From IMG/VR virus record IMGVR_UViG_2690316231_000015: a stretch of 8,145 nt of DNA; one strand, given 5' to 3'. The DNA is from a virus. Lineage: Duplodnaviria > Heunggongvirae > Uroviricota > Caudoviricetes. A program made the translations under genes and the position numbers. The notes beneath the pieces are model-generated. The model was not told the DNA's origin, did no database searches, and worked only from the letters and a program-made list of their open reading frames with translations. Of this stretch, positions 47 through 4,826 are shown piece by piece. How positions within the stretch are numbered: the stretch's first letter is position 1; every line of letters begins with the position of its first letter.

Positions 47-1051
47 ATGGCTACATACGGCGGTCAGTTTACGCTTACTGAAGTGGTATATGGTGCATAT
101 AAAGGTAAAGAATCCCAGCAGATTTATTTTGTTCCCTTTATGACCGATGGTAGCGGAGTTAATACACCGACAAACAACCCGTCAGAAGATCCTGATATTG
201 CCGGGTCTGGTTATTACGGTTCGGCATCCCGAACGAACAAAAACTGGGTATCATCAAATCGCCCGACGCATTTCAGCTCATGGGCGCGTCGTGGCATTAT
301 TCCCGATCGTATGGCAACTGCTATTCTGAACGTAGCCGGTCGCACCTTAGCCTTCATTAGTGGTAAGGCACCGGAAATCAAACCCTCGCCCGGCGGCGAC
401 ACTCCATCGGGGCCGTCTGATGGTGACACATCCGTTCGTACAGTCTCCCTGCTGCCGACAGCCGGAGAGGCTGCTGCGCAGGGCTGGACCATCACCGGCG
501 GCAGTGTTGCGCTGGAAGATGGTGTGTTTAAGGTTACCAAGCAGAGCAATAAAACTTGGTCCCTGATGCATCCGGTGGATGACGCAGTCTCCCTGCTGAC
601 ACGGGGTGGCAGACTGAGCTGTAAGTTTCGACTGTCAGGCGCACTGACCAACAACCAGTTCGGTCTGGGAATTTATCTGTATACCGATGTAGCGTTACCT
701 GACGTCGTGGCGATGACCGGGACTGGTAACCCGTTCCTGATGTCGTTCTTCACCCAGACCACAGACGGCAAACTGAATCTGATGCATCACAGGAAAGCAG
801 GAAACACAAAGTTGGGCGAGTTCGGGAATTACAGTAACGACTGGCAGACGCTGGAGCTGGTGTTCACCGCCGGCAGTGCCACGGTTACTCCGAAACTGAA
901 TGGAGTGGCTGGCCCGGCATTCCAGGTTATAAAAGACAGTCTGACACTGGGACTGAATGCGCTGACGCTGACGGATATTACCAAAAATGCAGCGTATGGC
1001 GTTGAGATAGAAAGTCTGGTGCTGGAGATAAATGCACCAGCATCATCATAA
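47..1051 (+). CDS. NanS-p-like protein, C-terminal portion (end of a sialate O-acetylesterase-type domain plus a ~280-aa C-terminal domain); probably a 5'-truncated or disrupted gene
   Basis: 334-aa ORF. Residues ~10-95 (EVVYGAY...NNPSEDPDIAGSGYYGSASRTNKNWVSS...HFSSWARRGIIPDRMATAIL) resemble, from memory, the C-terminal end of E. coli NanS/YjhS-type 9-O-acetyl-sialate esterases. Position immediately upstream of the holin matches where nanS-p paralogs sit in lambdoid/Stx prophages. An in-frame TAA at 26-28 precedes the ATG at 47, so the esterase body is not in this frame upstream. Confidence 0.5.
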   Translation: MATYGGQFTLTEVVYGAYKGKESQQIYFVPFMTDGSGVNTPTNNPSEDPDIAGSGYYGSASRTNKNWVSSNRPTHFSSWARRGIIPDRMATAILNVAGRTLAFISGKAPEIKPSPGGDTPSGPSDGDTSVRTVSLLPTAGEAAAQGWTITGGSVALEDGVFKVTKQSNKTWSLMHPVDDAVSLLTRGGRLSCKFRLSGALTNNQFGLGIYLYTDVALPDVVAMTGTGNPFLMSFFTQTTDGKLNLMHHRKAGNTKLGEFGNYSNDWQTLELVFTAGSATVTPKLNGVAGPAFQVIKDSLTLGLNALTLTDITKNAAYGVEIESLVLEINAPASS

Positions 1052-1136
1052 AAAGTGAGCCAGTCAAATGGAAGGTATCGTTAAACTCACCGGTAGTGTC
1101 AGTGGGTCGTCTGAGATGCCTGCATGAGTTATCAGA

Positions 1137-1166
1137 GCCATCAGTACTTAACTGGTGGCTTTTTTT
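1137..1166 (+). terminator. Rho-independent terminator candidate between the NanS-like gene and the holin
   Basis: Hairpin GCCAUCAG (1137-1144) / loop UACUUAA / CUGGUGGC (1152-1159): 8 bp with one G-U wobble, followed by a 7-T run (1160-1166). Confidence 0.5.
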
Positions 1167-1201: not shown

Positions 1202-1417
1202 ATGTACCAGATGGAAAAAATCACAACAGGTGTGTCATACACCACGTCAGCGGTGGGAACGGGCTACTGGTTCCTGCAGTTGCTGGACAGGGTTTCCCCG
1301 TCTCAGTGGGCGGCAATAGGCGTGCTGGGGAGTCTGCTGTTTGGGCTGCTGACATATCTGACTAACCTGTATTTCAAAATCAGAGAGGACCGTCGTAAGG
1401 CTGCACGGGGAGAGTAA
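1202..1417 (+). CDS. Class II holin (phage 21 S21 / EssD-EssQ-like pinholin), 71 aa, with dual-start motif
   Basis: Translation [71 protein letters not shown]: two TMDs (first weakly hydrophobic and Gly/Ala/Thr-rich, SAR-like) and a charged C-terminus. Two in-frame ATGs at 1202 and 1211 (M-Y-Q-M). GGAG-type RBS at ~1189-1196. The ORF-track start at 1124 is an unlikely N-terminal extension that crosses the terminator. Confidence 0.85.
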
Positions 1418-1421
1418 TTCA

Positions 1422-1736
1422 ATGACTCAAAACTATGAACTGATTGTGAAAGGGATCCGCAATTTTGAGAATAAAGTTACGGTAACTTTAGCGTTACGGG
1501 ACAAAAAACGCTTTGACGGTGAAATTTTTGACCTGGACATCTCGCTGGACCGTGTTGAAGGTGCCGCGCTGGAGTTTTATGAGGCAGCAGCCAGAAGGAG
1601 CATCAGACAGGTCTTCATGGATGTTGCTGCCGGGTTATGTGAAGGGGACGAGCTGTTGCCAGAAACGCGCCCCTGTTCAGAGGCGCGGTATACCATAAAA
1701 ATTAACAGTTCTGATAACTCGATTACGGGTTGTTAG
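1422..1736 (+). CDS. Small acidic hypothetical protein inside the lysis cassette (position and size match YdfR/DUF1327-type ORFs of Qin-like prophages)
   Basis: 104-aa ORF starting 4 nt after the holin stop, with GGGGAGAG RBS at 1407-1414. No TMD or signal peptide. Same orientation and tight packing imply co-transcription with holin and endolysin. Family assignment is from recalled gene order (essQ-ydfR-rrrQ), not sequence comparison. Confidence 0.55.
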   Translation: MTQNYELIVKGIRNFENKVTVTLALRDKKRFDGEIFDLDISLDRVEGAALEFYEAAARRSIRQVFMDVAAGLCEGDELLPETRPCSEARYTIKINSSDNSITGC

Positions 1737-1791
1737 CTTTTTGCAGTTGGCTTTCCAGTATCTTTCATTGGTAGCATCCTGATAAATATCC

Positions 1792-2325
1792 ATGAGCGCA
1801 AAAATCAAATACGGCCTGTCAGCTGCTGTTCTGGCGCTGATTGCTGCAGGCGCGTCTGCTCCTCAAATACTTGACCAGTTTCTGGATGAAAAAGAGGGTA
1901 ACCACACTACGGCATACCGCGATGGTTCCGGTATATGGACCATCTGTCGTGGTGCCACAATGGTGGATGGTAAGCCCGTCATACCGGGAATGAAGCTGTC
2001 GAAGGAAAAATGCGACCAGGTTAACGCTATTGAACGTGATAAGGCGCTGGCATGGGTGGAGCGCAATATTAAAGTACCACTGACCGAACCACAGAAAGCG
2101 GGTATAGCGTCATTCTGTCCCTATAACATTGGCCCCGGTAAGTGTTTCCCGTCGACGTTTTATAAGCGGCTGAATGCCGGTGATCGTAAGGGCGCATGCG
2201 AGGCGATTCGCTGGTGGATAAAAGATGGTGGGCGCGATTGCCGCATACGTTCAAATAACTGCTATGGACAGGTTATTCGTCGTGACCAGGAAAGCGCATT
2301 AGCCTGTTGGGGGATAGATCAGTGA
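1792..2325 (+). CDS. SAR endolysin (GH24 T4-type lysozyme, R21/RrrD-RrrQ-like)
   Basis: 177 aa. N-terminal Gly/Ala-rich signal-anchor-release segment ([18 protein letters not shown]). Catalytic E-x8-D-x5-T triad in [17 protein letters not shown]-terminal region aligns with the phage 21 lysozyme pattern ([27 protein letters not shown]). Stop TGA at 2323-2325 overlaps the Rz start. Confidence 0.9.
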
Positions 2326-2780
2326 GCAGAGTCGCAGCGATTATTTATACTCTGGTTATCTGCACCATCGTCTGCCTGTCATGGGCTGTTAATCATTACC
2401 GCGATAACGCCATTACCTACAAAGCCCAGCGCGACAAAAATGCCAGAGAACTGAAGCTGGCGAACGTGGTAATTACTGACATGCAGATGCGTCAGCGTGA
2501 TGTAGCAGATCTCGACGCCAGATACACAAAGGAGCTTGCTGATGCTAACGCGACTATCGAAAGTCTTCGTGCTGATGTTTCTGCTGGGCGTAAGCGCCTG
2601 CAAGTCGCCGCCACCTGTGCAAAGTCAACGACCGGAGCCAGCAGCATGGGCGATGGAGAAAGCCCAAGACTTACAGCAGATGCTGAACTCAATTATTACC
2701 GTCTCCGAAGTGGAATCGACAAGATAACCGCTCAGGTCAACTACCTGCAGGAGTACATCAGGACGCAGTGCTTAAAATAA
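2322..2780 (+). CDS. Rz: i-spanin Rz (inner-membrane spanin subunit)
   Basis: Translation from GTG at 2322 ([75 protein letters not shown]...) is near-identical in pattern to lambda Rz: N-terminal TMD plus coiled-coil periplasmic domain. GTG overlaps the endolysin stop (GTGA). The ORF-track start at 2307 is a TTG 15 nt upstream. Confidence 0.85.
2542..2727 (+). CDS. Rz1: o-spanin Rz1 (outer-membrane lipoprotein), embedded in the +1 frame of Rz
   Basis: [36 protein letters not shown]...: signal peptide with lipobox V-S-A-C, Pro-rich mature peptide of ~42 aa. AAAGGAG RBS at 2528-2534. Entirely nested within Rz, as in lambda. Confidence 0.75.
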
Positions 2781-3196: not shown

Positions 3197-3817
3197 ATGA
3201 AAGATCAAGATGTTAGGTTCGCGGTGCATCATAAGCTTTTGAAAGAATCGCATTTAGATCCAGACTGCCTTGTGGTCGATGAATTTTCCATATCCCTTGG
3301 CGCCAGTAGAGCAGACATTGCTGTAATAAATGGTGTTATACACGGGTACGAGCTCAAAAGTGAATATGACTCTTTGGAGCGTTTGCCTCTTCAAATCAAG
3401 CATTATTCTTCTGTAATGGACAAGGTTACTCTTGTCGTAGCTGAGAAACACCTTGAGGGAGCATTAAAGTTAATCCCAGGTTGGTGGGGCGTTAAAACGG
3501 TTTCTGTTGGGCCAAAAGGCGCCATTCTTATAAAGCACATGCGTGGAGAAAAGCTTAATCGAAACCATGACACATTGATGCTCGCTCAATTGCTTTGGAA
3601 AGATGAATGTATCGACGTACTTGAACGATGGGGCTATTCCAAAGGAATCAAAAGCAAGCCCCGATTTGAGTTATGGAATATTATTGCGGAAAATATTCCA
3701 ATAGCGAATCTCAGGCCTGAAGTCAGAACAGCCTTAAAGAAACGCGTAGGCTGGAAAGTTAAGGCTTGGCAGGCTGAGTCTGCGCCAACCAATAAAGCTG
3801 TCTCACGACTAACGTAA
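3197..3817 (+). CDS. Hypothetical protein with N-terminal PD-(D/E)xK nuclease-like motif (putative restriction-endonuclease-fold protein)
   Basis: 206-aa ORF with strong RBS (AAGGAG at 3186-3191, 5-nt spacer). Motif E29...D40...E52-L-K54 (VVDEF / RADIAVING / GYELK) in an alpha-beta-beta-beta arrangement typical of PD-(D/E)xK enzymes. Hand-counted GC ~43% in 3301-3400, lower than flanking phage genes. Confidence 0.7.
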   Translation: MKDQDVRFAVHHKLLKESHLDPDCLVVDEFSISLGASRADIAVINGVIHGYELKSEYDSLERLPLQIKHYSSVMDKVTLVVAEKHLEGALKLIPGWWGVKTVSVGPKGAILIKHMRGEKLNRNHDTLMLAQLLWKDECIDVLERWGYSKGIKSKPRFELWNIIAENIPIANLRPEVRTALKKRVGWKVKAWQAESAPTNKAVSRLT

Positions 3818-4826
3818 TATGGTGCGTATGTGCAACTTTACGCCATTCTTTAGAGCCGCCAGATTTGTTAGCGCCTAATGATCTTTGGTAAATGTAATCA
3901 TCCCCCCAACTAAATTTGGAGCCAAAGACTTGATACTCTGGCGAACTAACAAGGGTAGTACATAAGTTTTTAGTTTGGCCCCATCCATTTCCTTTAACTG
4001 CGGTACCTTTTACAAAGATCCATGAGGTATCGTTCGAATATCTCACTGAGACATACTGAGACATGAAGCGTGGGTCTACGCTCGTAATGGTAGAGCTAGC
4101 GGTGGGATAATCACTAAAACTTGGCGTTCTTCCATTGCTAAAATTCTGTACTACGTACATCCAAAGATCGTATTCATGGCGCGGAATATGATGAACTTGA
4201 TGTTGCGGTATCCCTGCCTGTGATGCCGGGTATGCGGTTGAAGATAAAATCAAGTTTCTCCACGGAGCTTGGCCTGATAATGTGTTGACCATGCTTAATG
4301 CTTGTTGTTTTAAACTATCAGTTGCGTTTTGAATATCTCCAAAATCAATGATTACATCAATTAAACTAGGATGAATATTTAAGTGGTTAACCAGACTTGT
4401 GAATTGGTGCCATGTCTGGGGGGTGATAGACATAGCGAGCCCATTGATTAAGTTGCGTTGAACAGCATGTATATAGTTTGTTGAATATGCGGGAGAAACA
4501 ACAGGGATAATTTCCTTACCATTTACTCTAGCATCTTGGATACACATATCTAGAGGATGATGGCGGCTCGAACCATGTTTATCTAAATATTTAACATCCA
4601 GCAAAACAGGACGATTGGCTTTCCAGGATGCCGCAAGGTTAATACCGAAGTCAGATAAGTAAGAACTCAAACTCTTCTTGTAGCATTCGTTTTCATAATC
4701 CCAGTCTATGTCTGGAATGGTAATGATCGGAGTAAAACCAGAGAGCGTAGTTTGATCTAAAAGCATCAGAGATTCATATTCAGCAGGCTTCCATTTCAGC
4801 TGTGGATAATATTGATGTTGACTCAT
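3759..4826 (-). CDS. Hypothetical protein, 355 aa, no recognisable motif; convergent partner of the 206-aa gene
   Basis: Long minus-strand ORF with strong RBS (AAGGAG, plus-strand complement CTCCTT at 4832-4837, 5-nt spacer to the ATG at 4826). Hydrophilic, rich in S/T/N/Q/W/Y/H, no TMD, no Walker motif. AT-rich (hand-counted GC 29% in 4301-4400, 48% in 4201-4300). Its 3' end overlaps the 206-aa gene by 59 bp. Confidence 0.7.
   Translation of the reverse strand: MSQHQYYPQLKWKPAEYESLMLLDQTTLSGFTPIITIPDIDWDYENECYKKSLSSYLSDFGINLAASWKANRPVLLDVKYLDKHGSSRHHPLDMCIQDARVNGKEIIPVVSPAYSTNYIHAVQRNLINGLAMSITPQTWHQFTSLVNHLNIHPSLIDVIIDFGDIQNATDSLKQQALSMVNTLSGQAPWRNLILSSTAYPASQAGIPQHQVHHIPRHEYDLWMYVVQNFSNGRTPSFSDYPTASSTITSVDPRFMSQYVSVRYSNDTSWIFVKGTAVKGNGWGQTKNLCTTLVSSPEYQVFGSKFSWGDDYIYQRSLGANKSGGSKEWRKVAHTHHITLVVRQLYWLAQTQPAKP

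What the first reader, a model, noticed from the sequence alone, without database searches (positions are those of the whole stretch)
1422..1736. Extra small ORF wedged between holin and endolysin
The canonical lambda and phage 21 cassettes have the endolysin gene immediately after the holin. Here a 104-aa acidic soluble protein is inserted, starting 4 nt after the holin stop and ending 55 nt before the endolysin start. From recalled gene order it corresponds to the YdfR/DUF1327-type ORF of Qin-like prophages, whose function is to my knowledge unknown. Its conserved position suggests a role in lysis timing or regulation.
Basis: partly seen in the sequence, partly recalled or inferred. Interest (0 to 1): 0.4.

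Follow-up and report, generated by a model that had tools for sequence, protein, structure and literature searches.

The report
YdfR-family gene between holin and endolysin
The small extra gene between the holin and endolysin genes is real, but it is the already-catalogued YdfR/DUF1327 prophage gene: an optional accessory gene that looks unrelated to the lysis machinery and whose E. coli K-12 counterpart binds RNase E.

Summary
An intact 104-codon ORF lies at 1422-1736, 4 nt after the class II (phage 21-type) holin stop and 55 nt before a SAR-type lysozyme.

It is a textbook YdfR/DUF1327 gene. It scores 133.7 bits against Pfam PF07041. It is 100% identical to RefSeq genes annotated 'YdfR family protein', and a match is present in 4285 of 5426 complete E. 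coli genomes. It is therefore already known.

The lysis-timing idea is not supported:
- The gene is optional. 101 phage records carry it, against 427 with this holin type.
- Distant 72-76 aa relatives sit outside lysis cassettes: after Q, after Rz, and inside tail operons.
- The protein has no membrane segment.
- Published work on K-12 YdfR (core 81% identical) reports RNase E binding and RNA co-purification, with no growth effect on overproduction.

New here:
- The family core is a 72-residue beta-beta-beta-alpha domain with no detectable fold relative.
- In every non-lysis context found, and in every S-R locus with a large gap, the DUF1327 gene is followed by a convergent, sequence-variable small gene.
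- The window's 55-nt spacer is the scar of one such deleted gene.

The biochemical function remains unproven.

The parts
1202..1417 (+). Class II (phage 21 S-type) holin, 71 aa, with an MYQM dual-start motif. The longer ORF starting at 1124 is probably not used.
   Evidence: Pfam PF04971 E=9e-33; PHROG holin families; RefSeq annotates the 216-nt gene as 'class II holin family protein'.
1407..1414 (+). Shine-Dalgarno-like GGGGAGAG inside the holin 3' end, 7 nt upstream of the ydfR ATG. In cassettes without ydfR the same element serves the endolysin.
   Evidence: Read from the sequence. The junction ...GGGGAGAGTAATTCAATG is present in 63 of 65 window-type loci. P13803 has GGGGAGAGTAAGCTGATG directly before the endolysin.
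1422..1637 (+). ydfR codons 1-72: the conserved DUF1327 core domain, with strands 5-14, 18-27 and 34-43 and a helix from residue 50. Y53, E54 and A57 are invariant.
   Evidence: Pfam PF07041 at 133.7 bits. AlphaFold2 model with pLDDT 80-95 over residues 1-70. Stand-alone 72-76 aa homologues define the domain boundary. 58/72 residues identical to K-12 YdfR.
1638..1736 (+). ydfR codons 73-104 plus the TAG stop: a low-confidence, probably disordered C-terminal tail, one of several interchangeable tail types.
   Evidence: pLDDT 42-49. Alignment A1 shows mosaic tails after residue ~85. PHROGs 2091, 406, 34145 and 1085 share only the N-terminal ~90 residues.
1737..1791 (.). 55-nt spacer. Roughly the first 40 nt are the scar of the 3' end of a deleted convergent gene (PHROG 21218 family). 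The last ~15 nt (TCCTGATAAATATCC) are the endolysin leader, which has no Shine-Dalgarno sequence.
   Evidence: Alignment A7 against the cargo-bearing locus L030 shows a ~315-nt deletion between short TCC(T/A)GAT repeats. The L030 minus-strand ORF is PHROG 21218. The cargo-bearing form is in 102 E. coli genomes and is annotated 'hypothetical protein'.
1792..2325 (+). SAR-type lysozyme (endolysin), 177 aa.
   Evidence: Pfam PF00959 E=1.1e-24 and PHROG 7 endolysin. The N-terminal Gly/Ala-rich hydrophobic segment has a KD19 maximum of 1.78 at residue 9.
2322..2780 (+). Rz-type i-spanin. The start follows RefSeq; the mechanical ORF begins at 2307. A probable embedded Rz1 o-spanin ORF lies at 2536-2727 (LLGVSAC lipobox).
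   Evidence: Pfam PF03245 E=6.9e-41; PHROG 13; RefSeq 'lysis protein' coordinates; ORF list.

Best explanation
The ORF is a genuine YdfR-family (DUF1327) gene. It encodes a soluble cytoplasmic protein made of a 72-residue beta-beta-beta-alpha core and a floppy 32-residue tail.

It sits in the Q-dependent late transcript. It probably takes its ribosomes from the Shine-Dalgarno sequence in the holin's 3' end, which serves the endolysin in cassettes that lack ydfR. It is an optional accessory (moron-type) passenger at the holin/endolysin junction and not a working part of the pinholin, SAR-endolysin and spanin pathway. The 55-nt spacer after it is the scar of a convergent 'cargo' gene that was deleted here.

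Its most likely molecular activity is inferred from the K-12 orthologue, whose core is 81% identical. In that protein the interacting region maps to residues 1-72. The inferred activity is binding to the catalytic N-terminal half of host RNase E, and possibly to RNA, late in induction. That would touch RNA turnover, not envelope breakdown.

Shown: gene identity, synteny, optional status, domain architecture, the scar, and purifying selection on the core. Taken from the literature: RNase E and RNA binding. Inferred: that this copy does the same, and that this activity matters to the phage.
For: - Family identity.
- Real coding gene under constraint: core dN/dS 0.24-0.29; 65 of 65 window-type copies intact.
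- Fixed 4-nt junction and shared Shine-Dalgarno.
- Optional status: 101 versus 427 phage records; P13803 lacks the gene.
- Not tied to lysis: stand-alone homologues lie after Q (L009), after Rz (L011), and between tail genes M|L, L|K and I|J (L102, L096-L100, L013, L015).
- No transmembrane segment or signal sequence.
- Scar of deleted cargo; an independent deletion in BP-4795.
- PMC13232886: YdfR was recovered three times as residues 1-72 in a two-hybrid screen. It interacts with Rne(1-597) and co-purifies with Rne(1-598)-FLAG. DNase-resistant nucleic acid co-purifies with it.
Against: - The RNase E link rests on one paper using overproduced, tagged K-12 protein. The signal was seen only with Rne(1-597), not with the shorter Rne(1-498) or Rne(1-415), and the full-length short-linker fusion gave nothing with full-length Rne.
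- The paper's authors could not exclude a contaminant as the source of the RNA.
- Overproduction changed few transcripts and did not affect growth, so no global RNase E effect is evident.
- Within-type polymorphism shows only relaxed constraint, with pN/pS about 0.5.
- Nothing here tests the window protein directly.
Confidence: 0.4

Rival explanations
1. Lysis regulator. Made in step with the pinholin, YdfR would modulate holin triggering or SAR-endolysin release and so set lysis timing, in the way P1 LydB antagonises its holin.
For: The position immediately after the holin stop is invariant in E. coli lambdoids. A shared Shine-Dalgarno and 4-nt spacing suggest production in step with the holin. 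PMC13232886 cites a genetic screen that flagged ydfR for envelope integrity.
Against: The gene is absent from about three quarters of phage records with the same holin type, including Stx2a phages such as P13803. All distant homologues examined lie outside lysis cassettes. There is no membrane or periplasmic targeting. The same ydfR allele pairs with holins 76-100% and Rz 51-100% identical to the window's, so there is no co-variation. There is no hit to any PHROG of the lysis category. Overproduction causes no growth or lysis phenotype in K-12.
Confidence: 0.15
2. Orphaned half of a two-gene moron cassette. The DUF1327 protein would work with, or regulate, the convergent variable gene that normally follows it. 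It might silence or neutralise that gene late in infection, or handle the sense/antisense RNA that convergent transcription creates. With the cargo deleted, the window copy would have lost its purpose or kept only a residual one.
For: A convergent ORF of 70-182 aa follows every stand-alone homologue examined, at five different phage genome positions. Every E. coli S-R locus with a large ydfR-endolysin gap also holds one: L030, L084, L081, L093 and L007. Most of these ORFs match their own PHROG families over their full length. The window spacer is the scar of one.
Against: The cargo proteins are mutually unrelated in sequence, apart from L009/L011 and a marginal L015/L030 match. A specific protein-protein partnership is therefore unlikely. 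Cargo-less forms are far more common: roughly 2000 genomes against 102 for this tail type. They have arisen at least twice by independent deletions that spared ydfR, and they remain intact. This argues that ydfR has value, or at least persistence, without cargo. No cargo hits a known defence family.
Confidence: 0.2
3. Nearly neutral passenger. The gene would persist only because it is wedged between two essential late genes and now carries the ribosome-loading site and spacing for that stretch of the operon. The protein itself would do nothing useful for this prophage.
For: It is optional among close relatives. Within-type pN/pS is about 0.5. C-terminal tails are shuffled, frameshifted and truncated freely. 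There is no phenotype on overproduction and almost no expression in uninduced K-12.
Against: Core dN/dS is about 0.25 across types at dS 0.4-1.7. The fold and the Y53-E54-A57 motif are conserved out to Pantoea and Cronobacter phages at 25-35% identity. Two independent deletions removed the cargo but left the ORF whole. All 65 copies examined are intact.
Confidence: 0.2

Closest known systems
YdfR of the E. coli K-12 Qin cryptic prophage (P76160; Pfam DUF1327/PF07041)
   Same: Same family and same gene order, essQ-ydfR-rrrQ-rzpQ. Same 4-nt gap after a class II holin. The 72-residue core is 58/72 identical.
   Different: The C-terminal tail is unrelated after residue ~72. In Qin the ydfR stop overlaps the rrrQ start, whereas here a 55-nt scar separates the two genes.
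Phage 21 / Stx2a-phage lysis cassette (S21 pinholin, SAR endolysin, Rz/Rz1) without an inserted gene
   Same: Same holin family, same lysozyme family and same Rz. The holin 3' end and its Shine-Dalgarno are nearly identical.
   Different: In those cassettes the endolysin ATG sits in the 4-nt slot that ydfR occupies here. In the window the endolysin lies 370 nt further downstream, behind a leader with no Shine-Dalgarno.
Small RNase E-binding modulators: host RapZ, RraA and RraB; phage T4 Srd; phiKZ Dip (from general knowledge and PMC13232886)
   Same: These are small soluble proteins reported to bind RNase E. In the two-hybrid assays K-12 YdfR grouped with RapZ-like binders of the catalytic half, and RNA co-purified with it as it does with RapZ.
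Holin antagonists encoded next to holins (P1 LydB; the antiholin forms of S21 and lambda S), from general knowledge
   Same: Encoded immediately beside a holin gene and co-transcribed with it.
   Different: Antiholin isoforms are membrane proteins translated from the holin gene itself. YdfR is a separate soluble protein with no hit to any PHROG of the lysis category. Homology to LydB was not tested directly.
Lambdoid 'morons' (for example lambda bor, lom): autonomous accessory genes inserted between late genes, from general knowledge
   Same: Optional, and inserted at gene boundaries of the late operon. Found at several alternative positions in related phages, and flanked by conserved essential genes.
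   Different: ydfR itself is co-oriented with the late operon. No promoter or conserved terminator of its own was detected. It is the companion gene downstream that is reverse-oriented.

Membership tests
YdfR / DUF1327 (Pfam PF07041) | Scores above the Pfam gathering threshold over the whole domain | tested here: met
   133.7 bits against a cut-off of 25, E=2.7e-39, profile positions 1-90 of 93.
YdfR / DUF1327 (Pfam PF07041) | Close sequence relationship to the name-giving K-12 protein and to RefSeq 'YdfR family protein' entries | tested here: met
   100% nucleotide identity to genes annotated 'YdfR family protein' (WP_000193285.1). Core 58/72 identical to K-12 YdfR.
YdfR / DUF1327 (Pfam PF07041) | Qin-type synteny: class II holin, then ydfR, then lysozyme, then Rz | tested here: met
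   Window order confirmed; K-12 Qin order; 77 of 78 IMG/VR loci where the holin was found.
YdfR / DUF1327 (Pfam PF07041) | Binding to the N-terminal half of RNase E, the only biochemical property reported for a member | not testable with these tools
   Reported for K-12 YdfR only (PMC13232886). The multimer prediction or binding assay needed is not available here.
Antiholin / holin-antagonist lysis regulators | Membrane insertion or periplasmic targeting that allows contact with the holin | tested here: not met
   Maximum 19-residue hydropathy is 0.68 and there is no N-terminal hydrophobic segment. The holin, endolysin and Rz in the same window score 1.7-2.3.
Antiholin / holin-antagonist lysis regulators | Sequence relationship to a family annotated with a lysis function | tested here: not met
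   All five PHROG hits are 'unknown function'. There are no NCBIfam or PADLOC hits.
Antiholin / holin-antagonist lysis regulators | Measurable effect on lysis timing | not testable with these tools
   Needs deletion and complementation in an inducible lysogen.
Double-stranded-RNA-binding domain (dsRBD) | alpha-beta-beta-beta-alpha fold with significant structural similarity | tested here: not met
Known anti-phage defence systems (PADLOC) | Match to a defence-system protein model | tested here: not met
   No hit for YdfR or for seven convergent cargo proteins.

The most novel reading that the evidence does not exclude
DUF1327 would be the constant half of a previously undescribed mobile two-gene phage cassette: a late-strand DUF1327 gene facing a hypervariable reverse-strand cargo gene. 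The cassette inserts at many late-operon boundaries, namely S|R, after Q, after Rz, and tail M|L, L|K and I|J. The DUF1327 protein would be an RNA- or RNase E-directed factor that manages the cargo's transcript, or the sense/antisense RNA produced by convergent transcription, once late transcription starts. The window would hold an orphaned copy whose cargo was deleted.
Probability: 0.12. Interest if true: 0.6.

Novelty: already known. Interest (0 to 1): 0.27.

Why it matters
As a finding it is ordinary. The gene is catalogued, annotated in thousands of E. coli genomes, and already known from K-12 Qin. It should not be read as a new lysis component.

The residual value is twofold:
- YdfR is one of the commonest prophage proteins of E. 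coli and Shiga-toxin phages that still has no function. The only lead is a single RNase E-binding report. The data here define the 72-residue unit to work with. They also show the gene is dispensable for lysis-cassette function in related phages.
- The recurring 'DUF1327 followed by a convergent variable gene' layout gives a concrete, testable handle on why the family spreads. It also marks a hot spot for accessory genes in the late operons of enterobacterial temperate phages, including Stx1 and Stx2c phages.

Tried and rejected
- **Intrinsic terminator or attenuator at the ydfR 3' end** (hairpin 1711-1736 plus CTTTTTG). The regional fold z-score is -1.0. Two stem positions are mutated, with no compensating change, in the cargo-bearing relative L030. 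No terminator is called in L030 or L084. Rejected as a conserved feature.
- **A known RNA in the spacer or the gene.** No Rfam family reaches its threshold in the window or in five related loci.
- **The minus-strand 43-aa ORF at 1677-1808 as a gene.** It has no PHROG hit and spans the deletion scar. Rejected.
- **Common ancestry of the convergent cargo genes.** All-against-all BLASTP finds only L009/L011 (60% identity) and a marginal L015/L030 match at E=0.003. There are no Pfam or PADLOC hits.
- **Promoters for the cargo genes.** The simple sigma-70 scan found none convincing.
- **Searches that could not run or found nothing.** The search for related loci with the diverse alignments failed because no stretch was conserved enough. 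The viral-contig scan with P0172 found nothing.
- **First structure model.** With a shallow alignment it was poor (pLDDT 57). It was superseded by the model built on alignment A3 (pLDDT 76 overall).

Full report
**1. Observation**

The window holds a complete lambdoid late region:
- the C-terminal part of a SASA/NanS-p-type esterase (47-1051);
- a class II, phage 21-type holin (1202-1417; PF04971, E=9e-33);
- the ORF in question (1422-1736);
- a lysozyme with an N-terminal SAR-like segment (1792-2325; PF00959);
- Rz, with a probable embedded Rz1;
- a two-gene insert;
- the terminase genes Nu1 and A.

The protein is mildly acidic (pI 4.85) and has no hydrophobic stretch. Its maximum 19-residue hydropathy is 0.68, against 1.7-2.3 for the three membrane-associated lysis proteins beside it.

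**2. Identity**

The ORF scores 133.7 bits against Pfam DUF1327 (PF07041; cut-off 25) and matches PHROG 2735 end to end. Its DNA is 100% identical to genes that RefSeq annotates as 'YdfR family protein' (WP_000193285.1). One example is E. coli Ecol_AZ155, whose prophage carries, in the same order, every gene seen in the window. A match occurs in 4285 of 5426 complete E. coli genomes. K-12 Qin has essQ-ydfR-rrrQ-rzpQ with the same 4-nt holin/ydfR gap.

**3. It is a real, constrained gene**

- Core dN/dS against K-12 ydfR is 0.26 at dS 0.38, and it is 0.24-0.29 against the more distant Stx-phage alleles.
- All 65 copies of the 104-aa form recovered from IMG/VR are intact. Polymorphism within this type shows only relaxed constraint, with pN/pS about 0.5.

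**4. Anatomy of the protein**

Close relatives share residues 1-85 and then diverge into interchangeable tails, giving forms of 104, 114/116, 161, 176, 183 and 263-287 aa. Four further PHROGs (2091, 406, 34145, 1085) share only the N-terminal ~90 residues.

An exhaustive profile search of 1.84 billion representative proteins found only 73 relatives. They include stand-alone proteins of 72-76 aa that align with residues 1-72. With these in the alignment, AlphaFold2 gives a confident core (pLDDT 80-95): three antiparallel strands (5-14, 18-27, 34-43) followed by one long helix from residue 50. The tail is modelled with low confidence. Y53, E54 and A57 are invariant across the family.

**5. Is the position conserved, and does it imply a lysis role?**

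Within E. coli lambdoid phages the position is conserved:
- In 77 of 78 IMG/VR loci where the holin was found, ydfR starts 4 nt after the holin stop.
- The same holds in mEp460, BP-4795, Tritos, Stx1_699 and YYZ-2008.
- The junction GGGGAGAGTAATTCAATG is nearly invariant.

Three observations nevertheless separate the gene from the lysis function.

- **It is optional.** 427 phage records carry this holin type and 101 carry DUF1327. In Stx2 phage P13803 the endolysin ATG sits in the very same slot, GGGGAGAGTAAGCTGATG. So ydfR plus what follows it behaves as an insertion/deletion module that takes over the Shine-Dalgarno sequence in the holin's 3' end. In the window this leaves the endolysin behind a leader with no Shine-Dalgarno.
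- **The same ydfR allele pairs with varied partners.** The accompanying holins are 76-100% and the Rz proteins 51-100% identical to the window's.
- **The distant, stand-alone homologues are not in lysis cassettes.**
  - One lies after the Q antiterminator in a Pantoea prophage (L009, with related loci L103-L105).
  - One lies after Rz in Cronobacter (L011).
  - Others lie inside tail operons between M and L (L102), L and K (L096-L100), and I and J (L013, L015).

**6. An unexpected regularity**

In every one of those non-lysis contexts, the DUF1327 gene is followed within 60 nt or less by a convergent, reverse-strand ORF of 70-182 aa. In most of these neighbourhoods it is the only reverse-oriented gene called.

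The same holds at the S-R junction whenever the gap between ydfR and the endolysin is large:

| Locus | Convergent ORF | PHROG |
|---|---|---|
| L030 | 79 aa | 21218 |
| L084 | 90 aa | 2411 |
| L081 | 104 aa | 1853 |
| L093 | 86 aa | 2572 |
| L007 | 233 aa | none |

These 'cargo' proteins are mostly unrelated to one another. They have no Pfam or PADLOC match.

Aligning the window with L030 shows what the 55-nt spacer is. Its first ~40 nt are homologous to the 3' end of the PHROG-21218 cargo gene. About 315 nt have then been lost between short TCC(T/A)GAT repeats, up to the endolysin leader. BP-4795 carries an independent deletion, with different breakpoints, of the PHROG-2411 cargo.

The cargo-bearing version of the window's form is present in 102 complete E. 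coli genomes, where PGAP calls the cargo 'hypothetical protein'. The ydfR sequence itself is present at 80% coverage or more in about 2100 genomes.

The variable C-terminal tails of YdfR proteins are most simply explained as by-products of cargo exchange, because the two genes abut or overlap at their 3' ends.

**7. What it most likely does**

The only experimental data are in PMC13232886 (RNA Biology 2026).
- K-12 YdfR was recovered three times, as residues 1-72, in a bacterial two-hybrid screen.
- It gave signals with RNase E(1-597).
- It co-purified with chromosomally encoded Rne(1-598)-FLAG.
- DNase-resistant nucleic acid came down with it.
- Overproduction changed few transcripts and did not affect growth.
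- The gene was essentially silent in uninduced cells.

The interacting fragment coincides with the conserved core defined here, and the window's core is 58/72 identical to it.

I therefore take as most likely that this is a late-expressed cytoplasmic accessory protein whose target is RNase E and/or RNA, not the envelope. My confidence is moderate to low (about 0.4). The evidence comes from a single study of overproduced, tagged protein, and no effect on RNase E activity has been demonstrated.

The rivals are:
- a true lysis-timing regulator (0.15);
- the orphaned partner of the deleted convergent gene (0.2);
- a nearly neutral passenger (0.2).

**8. Comparison with known systems**

Membership in YdfR/DUF1327 is met on every computable criterion. 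Membership in the antiholin or holin-antagonist class fails on membrane targeting and on homology. The dsRBD resemblance is partial and insignificant. No defence-system model matches.

**9. Verdict**

The gene is already known and extremely common, so the finding is ordinary. The suggested lysis-timing role is not supported by comparative evidence, although no experiment has tested it.

What is worth carrying forward:
- the 72-residue domain definition;
- the demonstration that the spacer is a deletion scar;
- the recurrent 'DUF1327 facing a variable reverse gene' layout, which I did not find described in the searchable literature.

Noticed in passing
window 3197-3817 (+) and 3759-4826 (-): A convergent, 59-nt-overlapping gene pair lies between Rz and the terminase small subunit, in the lambda 'bor' moron position. 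One gene is an sce7726-family protein (NCBIfam NF033832; PADLOC candidate 'cll'). The other is a 'Beta protein' (PF14350; PADLOC 'beta' and PD-Lambda-2_C-like). This is a likely prophage-borne anti-phage defence candidate.
   Followed up: partly
L009, L011, L013, L015, L096-L100, L102-L105; also L030, L081, L084, L093, L007: Every stand-alone DUF1327 gene, and every E. coli S-R locus with a large ydfR-endolysin gap, has a convergent reverse-strand ORF immediately downstream. These ORFs are 70-233 aa, belong to PHROGs 25324, 10490, 6806, 21218, 2411, 1853 and 2572 or to none, and are mutually unrelated. The layout looks like a mobile two-gene cassette.
   Followed up: partly
window 1767-1791: The endolysin has no Shine-Dalgarno sequence upstream (ATTGGTAGCATCCTGATAAATATCC ATG). 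ydfR has taken over the GGAG in the holin 3' end, which serves the endolysin in cassettes without ydfR. In K-12 Qin the endolysin start instead overlaps the ydfR stop.
   Followed up: partly
window 1134-1162: A terminator-like hairpin (12 pairs) followed by TTTTTATTGTT lies just upstream of the holin start and inside the mechanical 97-aa ORF that begins at 1124. This argues that the annotated 71-aa holin (start 1202, MYQM dual-start motif) is the real product.
   Followed up: no
window 47-1051: This is the C-terminal 334 aa of a SASA-family carbohydrate esterase (DUF6645; PHROG 143), which is the NanS-p/YjhS-type 9-O-acetyl-sialate esterase typical of Stx-phage late regions. The full gene is 1857 nt in the matching E. 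coli prophage.
   Followed up: no
proteins P0176 and P0128: In some relatives the same linker and tail (…ETRPCSEARYTIKINSSDNSI…) or the K-12-type tail is joined to a different domain of about 70 residues (…VTVxFPxxxxSR…SKVxVWLDxEExLSxMYKEDYDP…ARAxxYALSVFAAMRA). By eye this domain looks like a second, very divergent strand-strand-strand-helix unit. P0177 carries two DUF1327 domains in tandem.
   Followed up: no
L103 160-342 (-) and L104 1688-2329 (-): A reverse-oriented HicA-like/HicB-like toxin-antitoxin pair sits directly upstream of the stand-alone DUF1327 gene. So accessory genes cluster on both sides of it (assignment by eye from the HicA motif, not tested).
   Followed up: no
L093 2180-2486 and 5107-5523: Four tRNA genes lie upstream of the holin, and a cspA-type thermoregulator RNA lies downstream of the lysis genes, in a related Qin-like phage locus. 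K-12 Qin likewise surrounds its lysis genes with csp genes. The RNase E paper notes that ydfR is reported to be cold-induced.
   Followed up: no
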